Shown: positions 23,381-34,725 of the stretch, one piece after another
Numbering within the stretch: the first letter of the stretch is position 1
Layout: every line of letters starts with the position of its first letter
Notes under the pieces: generated by a model
Told to the model about the DNA's origin: nothing
Database searches by the model: none
What the model saw: the letters and a program-made list of their open reading frames with translations, nothing else
Assembly (NCBI RefSeq): GCF_024502345.1
Contig: NZ_JALDNN010000001.1
Length of the DNA: 64,000 nucleotides
Direction: 5' to 3' (one strand)
Source of the DNA: Escherichia coli
GTDB lineage: Bacteria > Pseudomonadota > Gammaproteobacteria > Enterobacterales > Enterobacteriaceae
Position numbers and translations under genes: made by a program

Positions 23381-24028
23381 GGCACTGTTGCAAATAGTCG
23401 GTGGTGATAAACTTATCATCCCCTTTTGCTGATGGAGCTGCACATGAACCCATTCAAAGGCCGGCATTTTCAGCGTGACATCATTCTGTGGGCCGTACGC
23501 TGGTACTGCAAATACGGCATCAGTTACCGTGAGCTGCAGGAGATGCTGGCTGAACGCGGAGTGAATGTCGATCACTCCACGATTTACCGCTGGGTTCAGC
23601 GTTATGCGCCTGAAATGGAAAAACGGCTGCGCTGGTACTGGCGTAACCCTTCCGATCTTTGCCCGTGGCACATGGATGAAACCTACGTGAAGGTCAATGG
23701 CCGCTGGGCGTATCTGTACCGGGCCGTCGACAGCCGGGGCCGCACTGTCGATTTTTATCTCTCCTCCCGTCGTAACAGCAAAGCTGCATACCGGTTTCTG
23801 GGTAAAATCCTCAACAACGTGAAGAAGTGGCAGATCCCGCGATTCATCAACACGGATAAAGCGCCCGCCTATGGTCGCGCGCTTGCTCTGCTCAAACGCG
23901 AAGGCCGGTGCCCGTCTGACGTTGAACACCGACAGATTAAGTACCGGAACAACGTGATTGAATGCGATCATGGCAAACTGAAACGGATAATCGGCGCCAC
24001 GCTGGGATTTAAATCCATGAAGACGGCT
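23381..24028 (+). mobile_element. IS26, 3'-truncated (left IR plus ~648 bp)
   Basis: Left IR GGCACTGTTGCAAA at 23381-23394; transposase matches IS26 Tnp to ...ATLGFKSMKTA, then sequence diverges; right IR absent. Confidence 0.85.
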
Positions 24029-24031
24029 TAA
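23444..24031 (+). pseudogene. tnpA: IS26 transposase, C-terminally truncated (195 of ~234 aa)
   Basis: MNPFKGRHFQRDIILWAVRWYCKYGISYRELQEMLAERGVNVDHSTIYRWVQRYAPEMEKRL...; stop created at junction. Confidence 0.8.
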
Positions 24032-24531
24032 CGGACATAACCTACATCAGGACCCACGAAGGCTGGCTGTATCTTGCCGTGGTGGTTGATCTGTTCTCAC
24101 GCAAAATTATCGGCTGGTCCATGCAATCCCGGATGACAAAGGACATTGTCCTGAACGCACTGCTGATGGCCGTATGGCGGCGTAATCCCCAAAAACAGGT
24201 GCTGGTTCATTCGGATCAGGGCAGTCAGTACACAAGCCATGAGTGGCAGTCGTTCCTGAAATCACACGGCCTGGAGGGCAGCATGAGCCGTCGCGGTAAT
24301 TGCCATGATAATGTGGTTGCAGAAAGCTTTTTCCAGTTGTTGAAACGCGAACGGATAAAGAAAAAGATCTACGGAACGCGGGAAGAAGCCCGCAGCGATA
24401 TTTTTGATTACATCGAAATGTTTTATAACAGTAAGCGTCGGCATGGTTCCAGCGATCAGATGTCACCGACAGAATATGAAAACCAGTATTATCAACGGCT
24501 CGGAAGTGTCTAGATTATCTGTGGCGATTCA
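24029..24531 (+). mobile_element. IS3-family orfB 3' fragment (~160 C-terminal codons) abutting truncated IS26
   Basis: Translation LTDITYIRTHEGWLYLAVVVDLFSRKIIGWSM...HSDQGSQYTS...SMSRRGNCHDNVVAESFF (DDE integrase core). Confidence 0.65.
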
Positions 24532-24546
24532 TATCTTGGAATATAA

Positions 24547-25017
24547 ATGTTAAAAAAATTAATAACTTTTTCTGCCATCCTGTGTACGGGACAAGCATGG
24601 GCTGCATGTGTGGATGGTGCAGCTGGCCCAAACGGCGTAGATAGTGCCACCGAAGGTAGTACCTGCGATAACAGCGGTACGTCATATATAGGGAATAATA
24701 CCGCTTATGCGAGCGGGTCAGGTTCTGTTCTTAATTTCTTACCTGGAACTGTAATCAGTAGTAATGGTGTTGCTGCCGTTTATACGCTTGCCGTGGGAGG
24801 AGTCAATAGTGGCGGTTCGATCCCTGGAGCTGGAGCAACGGTTCATGCAAAAGGAGATTTAACAGTTAATGGGAATGCTCTGGGCAGTACTCGGAGTATT
24901 TTTATCTTTTCTGGTACAGATGCAGGGGGAAAACGTAACTCACTTCAGATAGATGGAAACCTGACTGCAACGAGGACTGGCGGTCTTTATGGGGCTGTTA
25001 TAGGTGATAATGCCTGA
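24547..25017 (+). pseudogene. Autotransporter/adhesin-like secreted protein, N-terminal fragment (signal peptide plus Gly/Ser/Thr-rich beta-helix-like region)
   Basis: Signal peptide MLKKLITFSAILCTGQAWA followed by G/S/T/N-rich repeats; ORF ends where the antisense integrase fragment begins. Confidence 0.4.
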
Positions 25018-25548
25018 CTGGGCAGCATAGCGCATGATTGCAGTGATACGCTGCTGAAGGCGCGCTGCAATCTCATAAATCTCTTTGGCTTCGGCTGCCT
25101 TTACTGGAACAAGTAAATCGGGAGTTCTGAGGGTGGTAATGTCACGTGAACCGATAAAGGGAAACACATGAGTTTCTAGGCTTTTCAGTATCTTCTCACT
25201 ATGTGAGGCTGACCATTTTTTGTTGCTCTTATGCCACTGCCTTGCGATGCCTTCAAATGTCTGAGCTGTTTCGGGTACCGACTTTTTGATTCGTTTCTGT
25301 TCGCACGGGTCAGTTCCTTCAGCTATCTGCTTTCTCGCCGCATCGCGTTTTTCCCTTGCTTCTGATAACGAGACTTCAGGATAGACACCCAGGGCGAGCG
25401 TTTTCTCTTTGCCCAGAAACCGGTAGCGGAGTCGCCAGTAGCGCGAGCCGTTAGGGTGAACGAGCAAAAACATGTTGCCGCTGTCGGCAAGTTTATAAGG
25501 TTTTTCATCCGGTTTAGCTGCACGGATTTTAGCGTCAGTGAGCGCCAT
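25018..25548 (-). pseudogene. P4-type tyrosine integrase, N-terminal ~175 codons only (catalytic domain missing)
   Basis: MALTDAKIRAAKPDEKPYKLADSGNMFLLVHPNGSRYWRLRYRFLGKEKTLALGVYPEVSLSEAREKRDAARK matches P4/CP4 integrase N-termini; ~195 bp downstream of the tRNA-Phe terminator. Confidence 0.75.
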
Positions 25549-25704
25549 TGGCGGTATCTCCTGATAGTAAAAGGGGCATAAATTTTATCGAATCAGACTA
25601 TACCCTCAGTTGTACCCTCGCAAGGGGCTTGATGCGGGTAGAAGTTGATTGAGCTGGGTGGAGTTAATGGATTGAAGAGGTGTTGATTTCTGCGGGATTA
25701 GAAT

Positions 25705-25732
25705 GCAAAAACGGACCTCCGTGGAGGTCCGT
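25705..25732 (-). terminator. Rho-independent terminator downstream of tRNA-Phe
   Basis: Perfect hairpin acggacctcc-gt-ggaggtccgt followed on the minus strand by TTTTT. Confidence 0.6.
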
Positions 25733-25743
25733 TGATATGAATT

Positions 25744-25792
25744 TGGTGCCCGGACTCGGAATCGAACCAAGGACACGGGGATTTTCAATCCC
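25744..25792 (-). tRNA. tRNA-Phe (pheV/pheU type), 3'-terminal 49 nt only; island attachment-site remnant
   Basis: TGGTGCCCGGACTCGGAATCGAACCAAGGACACGGGGATTTTCAATCCC is the reverse complement of the tRNA-Phe 3' end including CCA; homology stops inside the anticodon arm. Confidence 0.8.
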
Positions 25793-26069
25793 TTTAAAAG
25801 AGCCCAAACGATCCATCAGCACTAACAGTTTTTTACTGGTTTACCTTGAGAAAAATGTTTAAGTTTGGTTCTTCATGACTTAAGTATTGCTTAAATACGG
25901 CGTTTCGAAGCTACCAGAATCCTACCATTATGAGCCTATACCCATAGAAGAGAAATTATCTCCCGTTCTCGCGATTCAATGACTAAAAATCAGACGGTGC
26001 AGGCTTTTAGATACTGATATTATATCTTTTGGGTAAAGTATTAATCTCTGTTGAGATAGGCTCTTAGCC

Positions 26070-26414
26070 CTAAAATAGCCGAGCAGCAAACGCCAAAACA
26101 ACAATACTAACATTACCATTAACTGTCGCGATGGTTCTGAGTCGATCGTCTTTAAGTGTTTTACCATCAAATGTTGCGATGGTGCGGAGTCGATCGTCTT
26201 TCAGGGTCTTGCCATCAAAGGTAGCGATGGTGCGGAGTCGGTCGTCTTTCAGGGTTTTACCGTCAAAAGTTGAGATGGTTCTGAGCCGGTCGTCTTTCAG
26301 GGTTTTACCGTCAAACGTTGCGATGGTCCTGAGCCGGTCGTCTTTCAGGGTTTTACCGTCAAAGGTAGCGATGGTACGGAGTCGATCGTCTTTTATAGTT
26401 ACGCTCATAAGCAT
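26070..26414 (-). CDS. Small protein made almost entirely of ~5.5 tandem 16-aa repeats (DGKTLKDDRLRTIATF)
   Basis: ATG at 26414 preceded by AGGAG at 7-nt spacing; the overlapping plus-strand ORF lacks an SD. Confidence 0.5.
   Translation of the reverse strand: MLMSVTIKDDRLRTIATFDGKTLKDDRLRTIATFDGKTLKDDRLRTISTFDGKTLKDDRLRTIATFDGKTLKDDRLRTIATFDGKTLKDDRLRTIATVNGNVSIVVLAFAARLF
26127..26395. repeat. 48-bp direct tandem repeat array, ~5.5 copies, slightly degenerate
   Basis: Unit cgatggtNNNgagNcgNtcgtctttcagggttttaccNtcaaaNgtNg repeated head-to-tail. Confidence 0.85.
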
Positions 26415-26629
26415 TCTCCTGTGATACGTCCGTTCAGCACTTTACCATCCAAAATCAAGCACTGGTTTCTGTGAGTTCTGGACGCTAATTGTCTGAATCA
26501 GCGATTAAAACTCATCCAGTTAGCATTAACATTAACCAGCGCCTCATCGATCATAACAGGTCTGATGCAGGTTAAAAGATACAATCTTACCCATAAATTG
26601 CGGTAGCGCATTGTTCTTTTATCTGACAT

Positions 26630-29600
26630 CTAGAGGTGTCCTCCAACCCCTTTAAATTTTTCGATAAATGCCCCAATTTTCTGGAATACAGTCTGCTTTT
26701 TCGTTTTGTACTGAGGATTCAGCGGACTGAGCTTTGGTAGCGTCTCATTTAGCTCCGTCCCATTTTCGGTGGCATACTCCCGTTTTAGTGATGTGCGGAT
26801 ATAGCGCCTTGCAGCCTCTTCATTGAGGTTTTCTTCCTTAATCAACGCCTCTGCTTCCCGTTGCTGTTCACGCTGAGCATAGGTAAAGAATGCATCAATG
26901 ATACTGGCCTTGTCCGGCATGTCATCAAGGTTAGTTTGCTGAATAAAGTCAACAATCAGACCTTCTTTGGCACGGTTGCCCAGACTTGAGCGGATTAAGC
27001 GTCTGACCTCTTCAGTCAGGGCTTCTTTACCTTTTTTCTGACGATTGTGGTCGAAAATCAGACCAAGGATGTAATCCAGGTTAATTTCCTGCGACTTCAG
27101 CAGGTCAATTTCAAACACCACGTCATCCCAGTCTGTGGTTGATTTATCCCTGTCGTTTGATGCTTTTTCGCGTCGCTGCCAGTCCCGGATATCATTGTAT
27201 GCTGAGCGATAGTCCTGAACTTTACGTTCTGCCGGGAGACGAATGGTTTGTAATTCAGCAAATTTTTCATCATCCACATAGTGCTCTGCTTTAAAGGTTT
27301 CTACCGCTTCCGGGTCACTAATATCAACCTTCTGCAGGGCTTTCAGCGTGGCAAATTCATCATAGTTTTGCAGGATGTTTTCTGCCCGCAGATATTCACC
27401 AAACAGTTTGACGAAGGCTTTTTTCTCTTTTTCACTGTCGATACTGGCAGGGTCAGGGAAGCGCTGCTCCAGCTCAGAGACAACAGCCATAAAACCTCGT
27501 TTAGCCTCACCGGTTGCCGCATCGGTAAAGCCCTGCATGTACTCTTCGTAGCTTTTTTCCAGCACCACATTCTTGGTGTTTTTGTCGCCGAAAAGTGTGA
27601 TGGCATCAATGGTCGGACGCTCCAGGTCCCTGAAAGTCACGATATTGCCGAAGGTTTTGGTTGCATCATAGATACGGTTGGTGCGTGAGAATGCCTGCAT
27701 CAGACCGTGATAACGCAGGTTTTTGTCAACGAACAGAGTATTGAGCGTCGGAGCATCAAAGCCAGTCAAGAACATTCCCACCACGATGAGAAGGTCAATA
27801 TCCTGATTTTTCACTCGTTGAGCTAAATCGCGGTAGTAGTTCTGGAAACCGTTACTGTCGGTGCTGAAATTGGTTTTAAAGTGGTTGTTATAGTCATCAA
27901 TGGCTGAATCCAGGAATTCCTTTGCGCTGCTGTTCATTGCACTGGTATCAAAACTTTCGTCGGTAATATCACCAATAGCGCTTTGCTCTTCATTAGCAGC
28001 AAAAGAGAAGATGGTTGCCACACGAAGACGTTTATAGCTGCCAGATTTCTTCTCAGCTTCTTCCTGTAGCATTTTAAATGTCGTGTAATAAGCTTTTGCC
28101 GCGTCCACGCTGCTCACTGCTAACATGGCATTGAAGCCTTTTGCTCCCGGGAAGGTACGATGCGTTTTCTGGCGGAAGTTATTGAGAATGTATTGCGTTA
28201 TTTCCTGGATACGCAGTGGGTGCAGAAAGGCCTGGTGGTTTTCAGCCGCGCTGAGTTTTTTCTCATCAGTTTCCGTTTCAAGAGACTTAAACTGTGGGCG
28301 GACATCGTTATAGTCCACCTTAAACTTCAGCACTTTTTCATCACGAATCGCATCAGTAATGACGTAAGAATGTAATTCACGCCCGAAGACGCTGGCGGTG
28401 GTTTCTGCCCCCAGTGCGTTTTCCGGGAAAATAGGTGTACCGGTAAAACCAAACTGATAAAAGCTTCTGAATTTCTTTTTGAGGTTTTTCTGGGCCTCAC
28501 CAAACTGGCTGCGGTGACACTCATCAAAGATAAACACAACCTGCTGCTGATAGACGGGCAGGTCAGCTTCGGCTTTCATCAGGTTATTGAGTTTCTGAAT
28601 GGTTGTGACGATAATTTTGTTATCGTCCTTATCCAGGTTTCTTCTGAGGCCAGCTGTATTATCCGAACCATTCACACTGTCCGGAGAGAAGCGCTGATAC
28701 TCCTTCATGGTCTGGTAATCGAGGTCTTTCCTGTCGACCACGAAGAAGACTTTATCAATAAAGTCCAGCTCGGTTGCCAGACGTGCGGCCTTAAAACTGG
28801 TCAACGTTTTACCGCTACCTGTGGTATGCCAGATAAACCCGCCGCTTTCGGGTTTTGACCAGTTCTTCGCTTTAAATGAGCTGTTAATTTTCCAGAGGAT
28901 TCGCTCAGTGGCAGCAATCTGATAGGGGCGCATGACGAGCAGCGTCTGGCTGCTGTCAAACACGCTGTAATTAAACAGAACATTCAGCAGAGTATGCTTC
29001 TGGAAGAAAGTGGCGGTAAAGTCCTTCAGGTCCTTAATCAGAGTGTTATCCGACTTTGCCCAGTTCATGGTGAAATCAAAGCTATTTTTATCCCGTTTAG
29101 TGGTACTGGCAAAGTACCGGGTATCAGTCCCGTTGGAAATCACGAAGAGTTGCAGGTATTTAAACAGGGAGTTATCGCTGTTAAAGCTTTCCTTGCTGTA
29201 ACGGTGTATCTGGTTAAAGGCTTCACGAATCGCCACACCGCGTTTTTTGAGTTCGATTTGCACCAGTGGAAGGCCGTTGACCAGAATGGTGACGTCATAA
29301 CGGTTAGCGTGTGAGCCAGTCTGCTCAAACTGCTGAATGACCTGCACCTTATTGCGCAGCAGGTTCTTTTTATCTATCAGATAGATGTTTTCCAGACGAC
29401 CATCATCAAACGTAAAATCACAGATATAGTCGATATGGATTTTACGGGTTTTGTCCAGGCTGCTGTCACTGGGACTGTCCAGATACTGCTCTGCGAAGCG
29501 CCGCCATTCACTTTCGTTAAACACCACACCATTAAGACGCTGAAGCTGGTCTCGCACATTCGCCAGCATCGCAGCCGGTGACTTAACGGAGATAAACTCA

Positions 29601-29746
29601 TACCCCTGATTAAGAAGGTCTTGAATCAGCTCCCGCTCAAGGTCCGATTCGCTCTGGTAACTCTCACCAGTTTCCTGAGCTTTAGAGTACTTATCAAGGA
29701 CGATAAAGTTATTGGATTCAGCAATAGTATGTGTCTGTTGTGTCAT
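26630..29746 (-). CDS. hsdR: Type I restriction enzyme R subunit (HsdR)
   Basis: 1038 aa; DEAD/DEAH-type helicase motifs (TGSGKT, DECH) in an HsdR-like architecture. Confidence 0.9.
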
Positions 29747-29861
29747 GGTGCATCCTGTGCGTCATCTGGCAAAGTCCGGAAGGGTATCAGAAACATCATC
29801 CGGCACTCGTAAAGCCTGATACCGGTAGGTGAAAGCAGACACTGCCGGTATCAGTGGCCTG

Positions 29862-31087
<1,226 letters not shown>

Positions 31088-31091
<4 letters not shown>

Positions 31092-32644
31092 TTCTGCACC
31101 TCGCAGCCTTCAATTTCAGCCACAATCGCATCAATATCTTTGCGCAACTGGTCGATTTTGCTGACCGTGGTTTTCAGCTCTGCATTCAACTCAGCGATAT
31201 CGATAATTTCGCGAGTATCTTTCGCTTCCACATAGCTGCTCACCGACAGGTTATAGTCATTCGCGACAACAGTCTCAAACGCAACAGATTTCGCCAGATG
31301 AGCAACATCTTCCTTGCTGGCAAATACCTGCATAATTTGTTCGATATGGGCATCGGTCAGGATATTGTTGTTGGTCTCTTTTTTGAATAGTTCACTGGCG
31401 TCAATAAACTGAACTTTGGTATCGGTTTTATGTTTAGACAACACCAGAATATTGACGGCAATAGTGGTGCCAAAGAACAGGTTCGGTGCCAGTGAAATCA
31501 CGGTTTCGACATAGTTATTGTCAACCAGGTACTGTCGGATTTTCTGCTCTGCACCGCCACGGTAAAAAATACCGGGGAAGCAAACTATTGCTGCACGCCC
31601 TTTAGCAGACAGGTAGTTCAGCGCATGTAGGACAAATGCAAAGTCCGCTTTTGATTTCGGGGCCAGTACACCAGCTGGAGCAAAGCGCTCATCGTTAATC
31701 AGGGTCGGGTCGTCACTGCCAATCCACTTAACCGAGTACGGCGGGTTAGAGACAATCGCATCGAACGGTTTTTCATCGCCAAAGTGAGGCTCAGTCAGGG
31801 TATTCCCCAGTCTGATATCAAATTTGTCGTAGTTGATGTTGTGCAGGAACATGTTCATACGCGCCAGGTTAAAGGTTGTATGATTTATCTCCTGACCATA
31901 AAAACCTTCTTCAATGATATGGTTATCAAAGTGCTTCTTCGCCTGAAGCAGCAGTGAACCAGAGCCAGCGGCAGGGTCATAGATTTTGTTGACGTGAGTC
32001 TGACCGTGCATCGCAAGCTGAGCAATCAGCTTGGAGACGTGCTGAGGTGTGAAGAACTCCCCTCCAGACTTACCGGCATTTGCCGCATAGTTAGAAATCA
32101 GGAACTCGTAGGCATCACCAAACAGGTCAATCTGGTGCTCGTTAAAATTCCCCAGGTTAAGCCCTTCAACGCCTTTCAGAACGGCGGCAAGACGGCTGTT
32201 TTTGTCTTTAACTGTGTTACCCAGTCGATTGCTGGTCGTATCGAAATCGGCGAACAGGCCTTTGATGTCGGCCTCGGACGGATAGCCGTAGGCAGAGCTT
32301 TCTATAGCGACGAAGATACTATTTAAATCAGCATTCAGCCTGTCGTTGGTGTTCGCTTTAGCGGCAACGTTGCAGAACAGCTGGCTCGGGTAGATGAAAT
32401 AGCCTTTAGTCCTGATGGCATCGTCTTTGATGTCATCGGTAATGATGCTGTCATCAAGTGCTGCATAATGTATGCTCTCATCCCCTGCTTCCATGTAGCT
32501 GGAAAAATTCTCACTGATGAAGCGGTAGAAAAGTGCACCGAGTACATACTGTTTAAAATCCCATCCATCTACTGAGCCCCTGACATCATTGGCAATGGCC
32601 CAGATTTGACGGTGTAGCTCTGCACGCTGTTGAAGGCTTGTCAT
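31088..32644 (-). CDS. hsdM: Type I R-M N6-adenine DNA methyltransferase subunit (HsdM)
   Basis: 518 aa with NPPY catalytic motif ([10 protein letters not shown]); stop overlaps hsdS start. Confidence 0.9.
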
Positions 32645-32847: not shown

Positions 32848-34725
32848 TCAGTCGGTGAGAATTTCTTCATCCGTATCCATTGTGGATGGTGATGAATCTA
32901 TTTTTGTTGTAAGAAATACCCGATTCAGTAGTCTTTGCTTCAGGGCGTTTCTTCGCTCATTGTAGAATTCCGGGAAGTGACTGAACTCAATATTTTCATC
33001 TGAAACTAACAGCATTGATGGCGAATAGTTGTTTGATGGCTGAGATAGCCATTGTTTCAGGGAAGTATCCTGTTTACTTATATTCTGAGAGTGATTCAGT
33101 AAATGAAGATTCGGTATGGTGTCCCAGTATTCCGGATTTTCATAAAAGCTGAGCTTCTCAGGTGAATTCGCAATATAATCTAGTTTTTCAAGATATTTCT
33201 TTGAAAAATGATTTCTTGGGTGAAGGTGATCAATATGAAATACCTCGGTTGGATTCATTTCAGGGAACAGAAGATGCAATAGTGCGCGGCAACGACCTTC
33301 GCCATATCTGATATTGAGAAGGCTTTCGATGTATTCGTCGTCAAATCTGAGGTCTTTATTCGAGCCTTTATATCTGTCAATAATCTTTTCAAGAGGAAAG
33401 TGAATATCTGAAAGACTATTTTTCATTACCTCTCTGATACTCGTGAGTAGCGCATCTGCCTGGCTTCCAAAGATCCCTTTCAGAAGTACCATGTAAAACC
33501 ACTGGCTAATTACTGAGCGTTCATTGTGGTTTTTATTCAGGAGGTTAATCGTTGTATATAATGGATGTCCACTGGTTTGCTTTTTGTAAAGCCAGTAGAC
33601 CACAGGAATGACTGCATTTTTAGATATCAAAGACTGTGGATTGATGCCGAATCGCCTGATAAGAATAAAGGTCTCCTTGATACAGGATTTTATTTCAGAC
33701 CATTGTTGTTGTATCTTACCGACCTCCTCTGAAGTGAAGTTTTTTACTTTGAACCGGACGTCAGAGTCAATAAGCATCAGGCTGGTTTTTAAGAACCAGT
33801 CTCTTTCAATATAAAAACCCATTTCATTATTCTGATAAATGTTTTTTGTCAGTTCATCCAGTTCTCTTCTGAAATCCCCCTGCCAGTGCGCTACCGCTAT
33901 TGACATCAGTAAGTCTGAAAACTCAAGTTTTGTCCCCCCGCTGTTCGTGCGGATGAAAACATCCAGCACATGATCAATGTCCTGACTGCTCTCATTGAAG
34001 TAGTGGATAAGATTCTCAGTTCTTATCTTGGTATAAAGTTTAAGCAGAGTTTTTCTGGAAAATTCACTGGAAATGAGATCTCTTTTTTCAAGTTCTGGTA
34101 CGACAACGTTAAATAAAATATCATCAGGCGAATCATGTTGCTCGTATTTGAATATTTCGTGCAGGCAGAACCAGTGATGTTTGTTGTCTGTAAGTGAATC
34201 AGCGTATTGCTTGTCGGTCAGGAACCTGAAGTTATACTTCATCATGAGTTCGTCGTCTGACTTAAGTGGCGCGGTTAAATCGACGTAAAGCTTTCTGGGC
34301 GGCAGGATGCGATCATCCTGTGCCGAAGGCCACCACATCCGGGGCTGTTTATACGCATACGTTCCACACAATCCAATATATAATGATGTGAGACGCTGCT
34401 GACCATCAATCACCGCTTTGAAATCATGAAATCCAGCATTTGTTGCTACGCAGGGGTTTTCTTCATTAAATCGCTGACAGTATTCTTTCAGGAATTCATA
34501 GAATTTGTAATCATTTTTAATACTGGCACTACGGATATCCCACATCATGAAAGAGTTTATCGGGTAGTCTCGCATGATGGAATCAAACAGCAAACATATC
34601 TGACTGCTGCTCCAGACGAACTTCCTCTGAATTGCAGGCAGAAGATAGTGGCGTAAATTAATTGAATCTATCGCTTGTTTTATCGTTATTGCTTTTTCAT
34701 ACTGGCCAGCCATCATAAACCTCAT
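32848..34725 (-). CDS. DUF262 (ParB/GmrS-like) plus DUF1524 (His-Me finger, GmrD-like) two-domain protein; candidate Type IV (modification-dependent) restriction or defense nuclease
   Basis: 625 aa; N-terminal ...IQRKFVW...VIDGQQRLTSLYIGL; C-terminal HIDHLHPRNHFSKK; AT-rich coding sequence. Confidence 0.75.
   Translation of the reverse strand: MRFMMAGQYEKAITIKQAIDSINLRHYLLPAIQRKFVWSSSQICLLFDSIMRDYPINSFMMWDIRSASIKNDYKFYEFLKEYCQRFNEENPCVATNAGFHDFKAVIDGQQRLTSLYIGLCGTYAYKQPRMWWPSAQDDRILPPRKLYVDLTAPLKSDDELMMKYNFRFLTDKQYADSLTDNKHHWFCLHEIFKYEQHDSPDDILFNVVVPELEKRDLISSEFSRKTLLKLYTKIRTENLIHYFNESSQDIDHVLDVFIRTNSGGTKLEFSDLLMSIAVAHWQGDFRRELDELTKNIYQNNEMGFYIERDWFLKTSLMLIDSDVRFKVKNFTSEEVGKIQQQWSEIKSCIKETFILIRRFGINPQSLISKNAVIPVVYWLYKKQTSGHPLYTTINLLNKNHNERSVISQWFYMVLLKGIFGSQADALLTSIREVMKNSLSDIHFPLEKIIDRYKGSNKDLRFDDEYIESLLNIRYGEGRCRALLHLLFPEMNPTEVFHIDHLHPRNHFSKKYLEKLDYIANSPEKLSFYENPEYWDTIPNLHLLNHSQNISKQDTSLKQWLSQPSNNYSPSMLLVSDENIEFSHFPEFYNERRNALKQRLLNRVFLTTKIDSSPSTMDTDEEILTD

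What the first reader, a model, noticed from the sequence alone, without database searches (positions are those of the whole stretch)
26070..26414. Gene built from ~5.5 tandem 48-bp repeats directly downstream of hsdR
The ORF encodes little more than MLMSVTIK followed by repeated DGKTLKDDRLRTIATF units. It has a strong SD (AGGAG) and sits 216 bp downstream of hsdR on the same strand. Near-identical 48-bp units make it a likely variable-number locus. A charged repeat protein at this position is unexplained and could be a phase-variable or decoy component.
Basis: seen in the sequence. Interest (0 to 1): 0.6.

Follow-up and report, generated by a model that had tools for sequence, protein, structure and literature searches.

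The report
Repeat-built beta-flower gene beside hsdR
The repeat ORF is a real, selected gene for a small "beta-flower" barrel protein that public databases already name but whose function is unknown; its relatives often sit next to different anti-phage defence systems, and its repeat number varies between strains.

Summary
A minus-strand ORF at 26070-26414 holds 5.9 tandem 48-bp units. The likely start is the second ATG at 26408, giving 112 aa.

It is a real gene. Eleven of the 12 variable nucleotide columns among the five full units are synonymous. Orthologues at about 91% DNA identity differ by 22-25 synonymous and only 2-3 non-synonymous codons.

It is not part of the R-M enzyme, because Klebsiella plasmids carry the same hsdRSM cassette without it. 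Relatives lie beside Bunzi, type V retrons, a viperin-like gene, a type IIG R-M enzyme and DNA methyltransferases, and others lie in ordinary contexts.

Unit number varies (2, 3, 4, 5, 6 or 7) but always in frame, so this is not phase variation. The protein is basic (pI 10), so it is not a DNA-mimic decoy.

My best reading is an independent, probably membrane-binding cargo gene of defence islands. The gene and the fold are solid. The function is inference.

The parts
26070..26408 (-). Coding sequence of the beta-flower protein (112 aa from the second ATG, stop included). The mechanical ORF extends to 26414.
   Evidence: ORF list. Pfam PF21785, E 1.7e-10. 100% protein identity to RefSeq WP_020838577.1, '5-fold beta-flower protein'. 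Start choice from Shine-Dalgarno spacing and loss of the first ATG in orthologues.
26416..26420 (-). Shine-Dalgarno AGGAG, 7 nt before the ATG at 26408.
   Evidence: Read from the sequence. CAGGAGAAT is invariant in 10 aligned orthologous spacers.
26113..26393 (-). Tandem array, 48 bp x 5.9. Each unit encodes one 16-residue beta-hairpin (DDRLRTIATFDGKTLK).
   Evidence: TRF, unit table, alternating strands in the AlphaFold2 model.
26076..26111 (-). Codons for the C-terminal hydrophobic helix (SIVVLAFAARLF), predicted to be the core of the barrel.
   Evidence: DSSP helix at residues 102-113 of the 114-aa numbering. Hydrophobic C-terminal helices are described for the fold in PMC10584680.
26409..26629 (-). 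Non-coding spacer between hsdR and the gene. No terminator-like or promoter-like site was found on this strand. The 43-aa ORF inside it is spurious.
   Evidence: Promoter/terminator scan. Spacer alignment shows the ORF43 start is lost and stops or frameshifts occur in 8 of 9 orthologues. The spacer is found only in the hsdR-linked lineage.
26630..32644 (-). Context: type I (EcoR124-family) R-M genes hsdR 26630-29746, hsdS 29862-31091 and hsdM 31088-32644.
   Evidence: ORFs, RefSeq names and Pfam domains of orthologues.
32848..34725 (-). Context: DUF262/GmrSD_N protein, PADLOC candidate defence gene HEC-05.
   Evidence: PADLOC PDLC04151, E 1.8e-230. Pfam GmrSD_N in the orthologue.
25747..25822 (-). 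Context: truncated tRNA-like remnant at the island end. By my own reading it is the 3' part of a tRNA-Phe gene.
   Evidence: Rfam tRNA at 17.7 bits, below the gathering score. ARAGORN finds no intact tRNA. A terminator hairpin lies at 25733-25710. The Phe identity rests on my own knowledge and was not tested.

Best explanation
This is a genuine, expressed-type protein gene for a small (112 aa), basic beta-flower protein with no signal peptide (Pfam PF21785, Tubby-like clan). Six 16-residue beta-hairpin repeats close into a shallow 12-stranded barrel around the C-terminal hydrophobic helix.

It is not a subunit of the type I restriction enzyme. It is a separate cargo gene sitting at the outer edge of an integrated defence island (HEC-05, then hsdMSR, then this gene) beside a tRNA remnant. 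Relatives are scattered next to unrelated defence systems on islands and on 4-kb plasmids.

The array gains and loses whole units by recombination between repeats, and substitutions spread to all units. Selection keeps the hairpin sequence intact.

Inferred, not shown: the ring of Lys/Arg and Phe on the hairpin loops docks the barrel on anionic phospholipid head groups at the cytoplasmic face of the inner membrane, as Tubby-like barrels do. There it would act as a stand-alone or accessory factor that benefits the mobile element, in defence or in conflict with other elements. It is probably transcribed by read-through from hsdR, because no terminator was detected between the two genes.
For: Coding:
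- Among the five full units, 12 nucleotide columns vary. Ten are at codon position 3, one is a synonymous CGN/AGR change, and only one changes an amino acid. I calculated a binomial P of about 5e-4 for at least 10 of 12 falling at position 3.
- Orthologues at 90-92% DNA identity differ by 22-25 synonymous and 2-3 non-synonymous codons.
- The opposite-strand ORF changes amino acids at those same columns.

Family and fold:
- Pfam PF21785, 41.2 bits.
- AlphaFold2 pLDDT 85 and pTM 0.67, with 12 strands and a helix.
- Foldseek TM about 0.85 to many 110-140 aa bacterial proteins.
- The fold description in PMC10584680 matches.

Not part of the R-M enzyme:
- Klebsiella IncFIB plasmids carry hsdR/M at 97-99% protein identity with no flower gene. 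The DNA homology stops at the hsdR stop codon.

Defence-island residency of relatives:
- BnzA/BnzB (E 1e-201 to 1e-203), type V retron RT_V + CSD_V, and a type IIG R-M enzyme.
- A pVip-like radical SAM protein.
- Two methyltransferases plus Nmad2/Nmad3 domains.
- All 78 E. coli complete genomes that carry either subtype have it beside hsdR or beside the retron.

Repeat dynamics:
- The unit matrices show a recent duplication, and deletions that join existing units exactly.
- Whole-array substitutions occur: R to H in all units of L005, and I to L in all units of L038.

Charge: pI 10.06.
Against: - There are no expression data.
- No function is known for any member of the family.
- PADLOC, NCBIfam and PHROGs give no meaningful hit for the protein itself.
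- Several relatives lie in ordinary chromosomal contexts: Succinatimonas between dgkA/tadA-like genes and an alpha-2-macroglobulin-like gene, a spirochaete beside a two-component system, and one beside Fur/AhpC.
- More distant type V retron plasmids lack the gene.
- The defence association rests on about 13 hand-picked contexts with no computed background.
Confidence: 0.6

Rival explanations
1. It is an accessory or regulatory component of this type IC R-M system, for example modulating HsdR assembly, alleviating restriction during establishment, or acting as a decoy.
For: The gene and its 221-bp spacer are attached to the 3' end of the same hsdR in all 50 E. coli genomes that have it, and in Enterobacter, Pseudocitrobacter and Mixta. 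It lies on the same strand with no terminator-like site between. It stays attached even where the far flank differs.
Against: All these copies belong to one lineage (at least 90% DNA identity), so they count as a single observation. Klebsiella plasmids carry the same cassette without the gene. Close relatives (82-87% identity) sit beside Bunzi, a retron or a pVip-like gene with no hsd genes nearby. In one E. coli the gene persists beside a truncated hsdR pseudogene. pI 10 rules out a DNA mimic.
Confidence: 0.1
2. It is a general mobile-element maintenance or fitness gene (exclusion, addiction, stability) unrelated to defence. It appears beside defence genes only because both accumulate in the same cargo hotspots.
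For: It occurs on 4-kb Col-type plasmids next to mobA/nikA and rop. It occurs in an element with a PRTRC cassette and integrase, in a toxin-antitoxin-rich patch, and at island ends next to integrases. No orientation or operon structure is conserved relative to the defence genes.
Against: Nothing links the fold to any known maintenance function. On the tiny plasmids the only other cargo is a defence system. Core-genome copies exist in Succinatimonas.
Confidence: 0.22
3. It is a contingency (phase-variable) locus whose repeat changes switch the gene or the neighbouring R-M system on and off.
For: Unit number is polymorphic: 3, 5, 6 and 7 in the hsdR-linked lineage, and 4, 5 and 6 spread across 28 E. 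coli plasmids.
Against: The unit is 48 bp, so all observed alleles stay in frame. Synonymous divergence between units (87% identity) lowers slippage. 48 of 50 chromosomal E. coli copies have the same length. The array lies downstream of hsdR, not in a promoter or in hsdS.
Confidence: 0.04
4. It is a non-coding satellite and the ORF is an accident of a period divisible by three. Alternatively, the opposite-strand ORF 26131-26424 is the real gene.
For: Both strands are open across the array. There are no expression data.
Against: Variation is confined to synonymous sites of the minus-strand frame, both between units and between orthologues. The Shine-Dalgarno sequence is conserved. There is a Pfam match and a confident fold. 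Homologues at 25-55% identity keep the same hairpin-plus-helix architecture.
Confidence: 0.02

Closest known systems
Pfam PF21785 Bflower_2 ('5-fold beta-flower protein'), the beta-flower fold of Durairaj et al. 2023 (PMC10584680)
   Same: HMM match at 41.2 bits. Short antiparallel hairpin repeats form a shallow barrel. The loops carry Lys/Arg and Phe. There is a C-terminal hydrophobic helix. The proteins are bacterial, small and of unknown function.
   Different: This member has six hairpins and 12 strands in the model, not five and ten. Its unit is 16 residues, whereas the type example has about 19. The units are almost identical to one another. Alleles with 2 to 7 units exist. The published description does not mention defence-island context or repeat-number polymorphism.
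Tubby C-terminal domain / LURP-one-related At5g01750 / phospholipid-scramblase-like barrels (Pfam clan CL0395)
   Different: Sequence identity is 9-10%. The strands and loops are much shorter. According to PMC10584680 the strand order is circularly permuted and the helix runs the other way. Lipid binding is untested here.
Repeat-driven contingency loci of R-M systems (phase-variable hsdS, hsdM or mod genes)
   Same: A tandem repeat inside a gene of an R-M locus, with copy number differing between strains.
   Different: The unit is a multiple of three and codes for a structural module. Changes resize the protein rather than switching it off. The gene is not a subunit of the R-M enzyme.
DNA-mimic anti-restriction proteins (Ocr, ArdA)
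   Different: Those proteins are strongly acidic and imitate DNA (my own knowledge). This protein has pI 10.06 and net charge about +7. It has no sequence or fold match to them.

Membership tests
Pfam PF21785 Bflower_2 (beta-flower) | Significant match to the family HMM | tested here: met
   hmmscan gives i-Evalue 1.7e-10 and 41.2 bits, covering residues 6-104 on model positions 3-101 of 112. The authors generally used a 27-bit inclusion threshold. PGAP gives the same name to the identical E. coli protein.
Pfam PF21785 Bflower_2 (beta-flower) | Short antiparallel beta-hairpin repeats forming a shallow symmetric barrel | tested here: met
   AlphaFold2 pLDDT 85 with 12 strands of 3-5 residues in a strict 16-residue rhythm. 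Foldseek TM 0.81-0.87 to AFDB beta-flower-sized proteins. This is a prediction only, and the coordinates were not inspected.
Pfam PF21785 Bflower_2 (beta-flower) | Five-fold symmetry (ten strands), as in the family name | tested here: not met
   The model has 12 strands, meaning six hairpins, and its best PDB matches are 12-stranded barrels. Natural alleles have 2 to 7 units. The family HMM evidently also accepts members that are not five-fold.
Pfam PF21785 Bflower_2 (beta-flower) | C-terminal hydrophobic helix enclosed by the barrel (stated for 'many' members) | tested here: inconclusive
Pfam PF21785 Bflower_2 (beta-flower) | Semi-conserved [DNEQ]xxG motif at the hairpin tip | tested here: inconclusive
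   The units read TFDGK, so the turn Gly is present and invariant across homologues (G52 and G84). The residue three positions before it is Thr here, though it is Asp in relatives such as P0046 (DFDG).
Tubby-like clan CL0395 | 12-stranded barrel around a central helix, with phosphoinositide or lipid binding | tested here: inconclusive
Known anti-phage defence proteins (PADLOC-DB 2.0) | Match to a model of a known or candidate defence protein | tested here: not met
   No families at E <= 0.001 for the protein. The neighbours of its relatives do match: BnzA/B, RT_V, CSD_V, pVip, type IIG and HEC-05.
Type V retron (RT + CSD) as a third component | Present wherever the retron is present | tested here: not met
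   In 27 of 28 plasmids with an RT at least 84% identical, the gene sits just upstream of the msr/msd region. Hafnia, Edwardsiella and Halomonas retron V loci have no flower-like ORF. Mestre 2020 lists only RT and CSD.
Phase-variable contingency locus | Repeat changes shift the frame or alter a promoter so that expression switches | tested here: not met
   The unit is 48 bp, and all alleles are in frame with intact ends.
DNA-mimic anti-restriction (decoy) | Strongly acidic surface imitating DNA | tested here: not met
   pI 10.06, with 24 K+R against 17 D+E.

The most novel reading that the evidence does not exclude
Beta-flower (PF21785) proteins are an unrecognised family associated with defence islands. 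They would be a minimal, single-gene, membrane-acting module that travels with, and perhaps assists or complements, unrelated immune systems: type I and type IIG R-M, Bunzi, type V retrons, viperin-like enzymes and DNA-modification cassettes. In this reading, hairpin number and sequence diversify by repeat recombination under conflict-driven selection.
Probability: 0.25. Interest if true: 0.65.

Novelty: already known. Interest (0 to 1): 0.4.

Why it matters
The gene itself is already catalogued.

Three things remain open and may be useful.
- No beta-flower protein has a known function. The contexts gathered here place the enterobacterial members beside five different defence or DNA-modification systems, including on 4-kb plasmids whose only other cargo is a retron or a viperin-like gene. 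That gives a concrete and cheap experimental handle.
- The locus is a natural series of 2- to 7-hairpin alleles of a closed, symmetric barrel. It shows both concerted evolution and purifying selection, which makes it an unusually clean system for studying how repeat proteins change symmetry.
- The Pfam and PGAP name "5-fold" does not describe this member, which is predicted to have six hairpins.

Tried and rejected
1. NCBIfam scan of the protein: only noise. The RefSeq name comes from Pfam.
2. PDB sequence search: only weak repeat-on-repeat matches to designed Kelch-like proteins. Not used.
3. Rfam over 24500-27500: nothing relevant.
4. A seventh, decayed unit upstream supplying the Shine-Dalgarno sequence: the alignment score is reached by 227 of 2000 shuffles. 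Rejected.
5. The 43-aa ORF abutting the hsdR stop codon: not conserved. Rejected.
6. The opposite-strand 97-aa ORF: non-synonymous at the variable columns. Rejected.
7. Phage origin or anti-defence role: there are no close relatives in INPHARED phages (one weak Gordonia hit), none in IMG/VR, and no fold match in BFVD. PHROG hits have no aligned stretch.
8. The search for related loci with the family alignment failed because no conserved stretch was available. The single-protein scan of genomes gave 10 loci.
9. My error: the metagenome DNA pattern was typed with 48 Ns instead of 40, giving period 56 instead of 48.
10. tblastn of a distant relative (P0046) against plasmids returned only the same enterobacterial plasmids.
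11. AlphaFold2 on the 7-unit Mixta allele gives 14 strands but low confidence (pLDDT 74.5, pTM 0.52, helix below 50). Whether a 7-hairpin barrel closes is left open.

Full report
**Observation**

Tandem Repeats Finder reports a single array at 26113-26393 with period 48, 5.9 copies, 87% matches and no indels. The ORF at 26070-26414 is on the minus strand. It reads MLMSVTIK, then five units of DDRLRTIATFDGKTLK (one with Ala to Ser), a sixth diverged unit (DDRLRTIATVNGNVSI) and the tail VVLAFAARLF. A degenerate back-translation of the unit matches five times in the window, all inside the array, and never in 100 shuffles.

hsdR (26630-29746) is the next gene upstream on the same strand, followed by hsdS and hsdM. 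AGGAG (26420-26416) is 1 nt from the first ATG and 7 nt from the second ATG at 26408. The first ATG is ATA in most orthologues, while CAGGAGAAT is invariant. RefSeq annotates 339 bp. I therefore take 26070-26408 (112 aa) as the gene. The first 6 kb of the window are 95-99% identical to more than 4,600 E. coli chromosomes, so the host is Escherichia coli.

**Is it a gene?**

Yes. Among the five full units, 12 nucleotide columns vary. Ten are third codon positions, one is a synonymous CGN/AGR first-position change, and one changes Ala to Ser. Orthologues from E. coli, Enterobacter and Pseudocitrobacter are 90-92% identical in DNA but differ from the window by 22-25 synonymous and only 2-3 non-synonymous codons. 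One E. coli copy is 100% identical in protein. The open frame on the opposite strand changes amino acids at those same columns. The 43-aa ORF in the spacer is destroyed in 8 of 9 orthologues.

**What is it?**

Pfam-A gives PF21785 Bflower_2, "5-fold beta-flower protein" (E 1.7e-10, 41.2 bits). PGAP uses that name for the E. coli orthologues. The fold was described from AlphaFold models by Durairaj et al. 2023. It is a shallow symmetric barrel of short hairpins with 4-, 5- or 6-fold versions. Lys/Arg and Phe lie on the long loops, and a C-terminal hydrophobic helix is often enclosed. It was placed in the Tubby clan, and its function is unknown. No paper in the library says more.

This member is therefore predicted to have six hairpins, not five. 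The protein has no N-terminal signal sequence, although some relatives do. Its pI is 10.06.

**Relation to the restriction system**

In 50 of 5,426 complete E. coli genomes the gene is present, each time with the end of the same hsdR. The same holds in three Enterobacter species, Pseudocitrobacter and Mixta. All of these belong to one lineage. In 27 of the E. coli genomes the homology begins exactly at the stop codon of the flower gene. The far flank is variable: a tRNA remnant and integrase, a 5'-nucleotidase, or TacA/T.

Klebsiella IncFIB plasmids carry the same DUF262-hsdM-hsdS-hsdR cassette (HsdR 97.6% and HsdM 98.6% identical) without the gene, and homology stops at the hsdR stop codon. 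In one E. coli the gene survives next to a truncated hsdR pseudogene. The gene plus its 221-bp spacer is thus a separable module, not a component of the enzyme. No terminator-like or promoter-like site was found on the minus strand between hsdR and the gene. Read-through transcription is therefore plausible but unproven. The spacer does not travel with the gene into other contexts.

**Contexts of relatives**

Beside defence or DNA-modification systems:
- An 82%-identical copy lies about 1.2 kb downstream of BnzA/BnzB of the Bunzi system, with transposase fragments between them.
- On 4.0-4.3-kb Col-type plasmids of E. coli, Salmonella, Shigella, Klebsiella and Serratia, two different subtypes (about 50% and 82% identical to the window protein) sit immediately upstream of the msr/msd region of a type V retron (RT_V + CSD_V). 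This holds for 27 of the 28 plasmids whose RT is at least 84% identical.
- More distant type V retron plasmids (Hafnia, Edwardsiella) and a Halomonas locus have no such ORF. The published definition of type V lists only RT and CSD.
- A 4.8-kb Klebsiella plasmid carries an 87%-identical copy next to a radical SAM protein that matches prokaryotic viperins (E 1e-25).
- A 42%-identical relative is adjacent to a type IIG restriction-methylase.
- One in Ferrovum lies between Nmad3 and Nmad2 domain proteins, just after two DNA methyltransferases.

In mobile-element patches without a recognised defence system:
- One lies next to an 816-aa AAA protein and an integrase fragment.
- One lies in an element with a PRTRC cassette and an integrase.
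- One lies in a toxin-antitoxin-rich patch.

In ordinary surroundings:
- The Succinatimonas copies, a spirochaete copy, and one beside Fur/AhpC.

The window's own DUF262 gene is the PADLOC candidate HEC-05. Close relatives are absent from phage genomes and viral contigs, and the fold is absent from BFVD.

This pattern is typical of a defence-island resident. However, I sampled about 13 contexts by hand and computed no background, so it is a lead rather than a statistical result.

**Repeat dynamics**

Beside the same hsdR there are alleles with 3 units (64 aa, in metagenome contigs and E. coli ES1), 5 units (96 aa, strain ET220), 6 units (48 of 50 E. coli) and 7 units (128 aa, Mixta). The plasmid subtype has 6, 5 or 4 units, and plasmid sizes of 4148, 4100 and 4051 bp track this. 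A Klebsiella plasmid has a 2-unit remnant.

The unit-by-unit distance matrices show three things:
- The last two units are positional orthologues across alleles.
- The 3-unit allele equals the window allele with units 1-3 removed exactly.
- Window units 2 and 3, and Mixta units 3 and 4, are recent duplicates.

Substitutions also spread through whole arrays: R to H in every unit of the Bunzi-linked copy, and I to L in every unit of the viperin-plasmid copy. All changes are in frame.

The 7-unit allele models as 14 strands with low confidence.

**Mechanism**

Shown:
- It is a selected coding gene.
- It belongs to PF21785.
- The predicted fold is a Tubby-like 12-stranded barrel with a C-terminal helix.
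- It is basic and has no signal peptide.
- It is separable from the R-M cassette.
- It is recurrently adjacent to unrelated defence systems.
- Its repeat number changes in frame, with concerted evolution.

Inferred:
- The barrel docks on acidic phospholipids of the inner membrane through its Lys/Arg/Phe loops.
- It acts as an independent or accessory factor that benefits the element carrying it.
- It is co-transcribed with hsdR.

I put 0.6 on this overall reading. The gene and fold parts are above 0.9. The defence-related function is about 0.25-0.35.

**Novelty**

The object is already catalogued, both as an identical RefSeq protein and as a Pfam family, so I rate it "already known". Possibly new are the defence-island association, the allele series of 2-7 hairpins, and the mismatch between the "5-fold" name and the six-hairpin prediction.

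Noticed in passing
window 25701-25822 (-), 24940-25548 (-), 23426-24031 (+): Island junction. A truncated tRNA-like remnant (Rfam tRNA at 17.7 bits, below threshold) is followed by a terminator hairpin at 25733-25710. By my own reading it is the 3' part of a tRNA-Phe gene. Next comes the N-terminal 202 aa of a P4-type integrase, whose full-length relative lies at the same place in E. coli ET220. An IS26-like transposase ORF follows. No intact tRNA occurs anywhere in the 64 kb.
   Followed up: partly
window 32848-34725 (-): The DUF262/GmrSD_N protein upstream of hsdM matches the PADLOC candidate defence gene HEC-05 (E 1.8e-230). It travels with the hsdMSR cassette on chromosomes and on Klebsiella IncFIB plasmids.
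   Followed up: partly
window 29862-31091 (-) and loci L001, L002, L004, L020-L025: HsdS is only 35-67% identical between cassettes whose HsdR and HsdM are 96-99% identical, which indicates specificity-subunit swapping. One E. coli (L001) also has an AAA-family ATPase gene inserted between hsdS and hsdR.
   Followed up: no
L009 8301-8483; L160 about 2330-2515: Type V retron plasmids from E. coli and Hafnia share a roughly 60-aa ORF between the msr/msd region and the RT gene (MFIINININVTK... and MLNFNINLSVTK...). The 2020 retron classification I read does not list it as a component.
   Followed up: no
L038 (Klebsiella plasmid NZ_CP084821.1) 1349-2239: A 4.8-kb ColRNAI plasmid whose main cargo is a radical SAM protein matching prokaryotic viperin models (88.8 bits). 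It also carries the beta-flower gene and two small hypothetical genes. It appears to be a miniature defence plasmid.
   Followed up: partly
L154 (Ferrovum myxofaciens CP053676.1) 4329-8988: A conserved trio Nmad3 - beta-flower - Nmad2 lies directly after two ParB-/N6_N4-type DNA methyltransferases in a mobile region. The trio recurs on a second contig (L155).
   Followed up: no
L028 (Succinatimonas hippei) 8257-8493 versus L027 10001-10348: In two Succinatimonas genomes the gene is syntenic in a core-like context. One copy is full length (115 aa, diverged units). The other ends at 78 aa without the C-terminal helix, so it is a possible pseudogene or 'half flower'.
   Followed up: no
window 26498-26629 (-): A 43-aa ORF starts right after the hsdR stop codon (TAGATG). 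It looks translationally coupled but is not conserved: the start is lost and stops or frameshifts occur in 8 of 9 orthologous spacers.
   Followed up: yes
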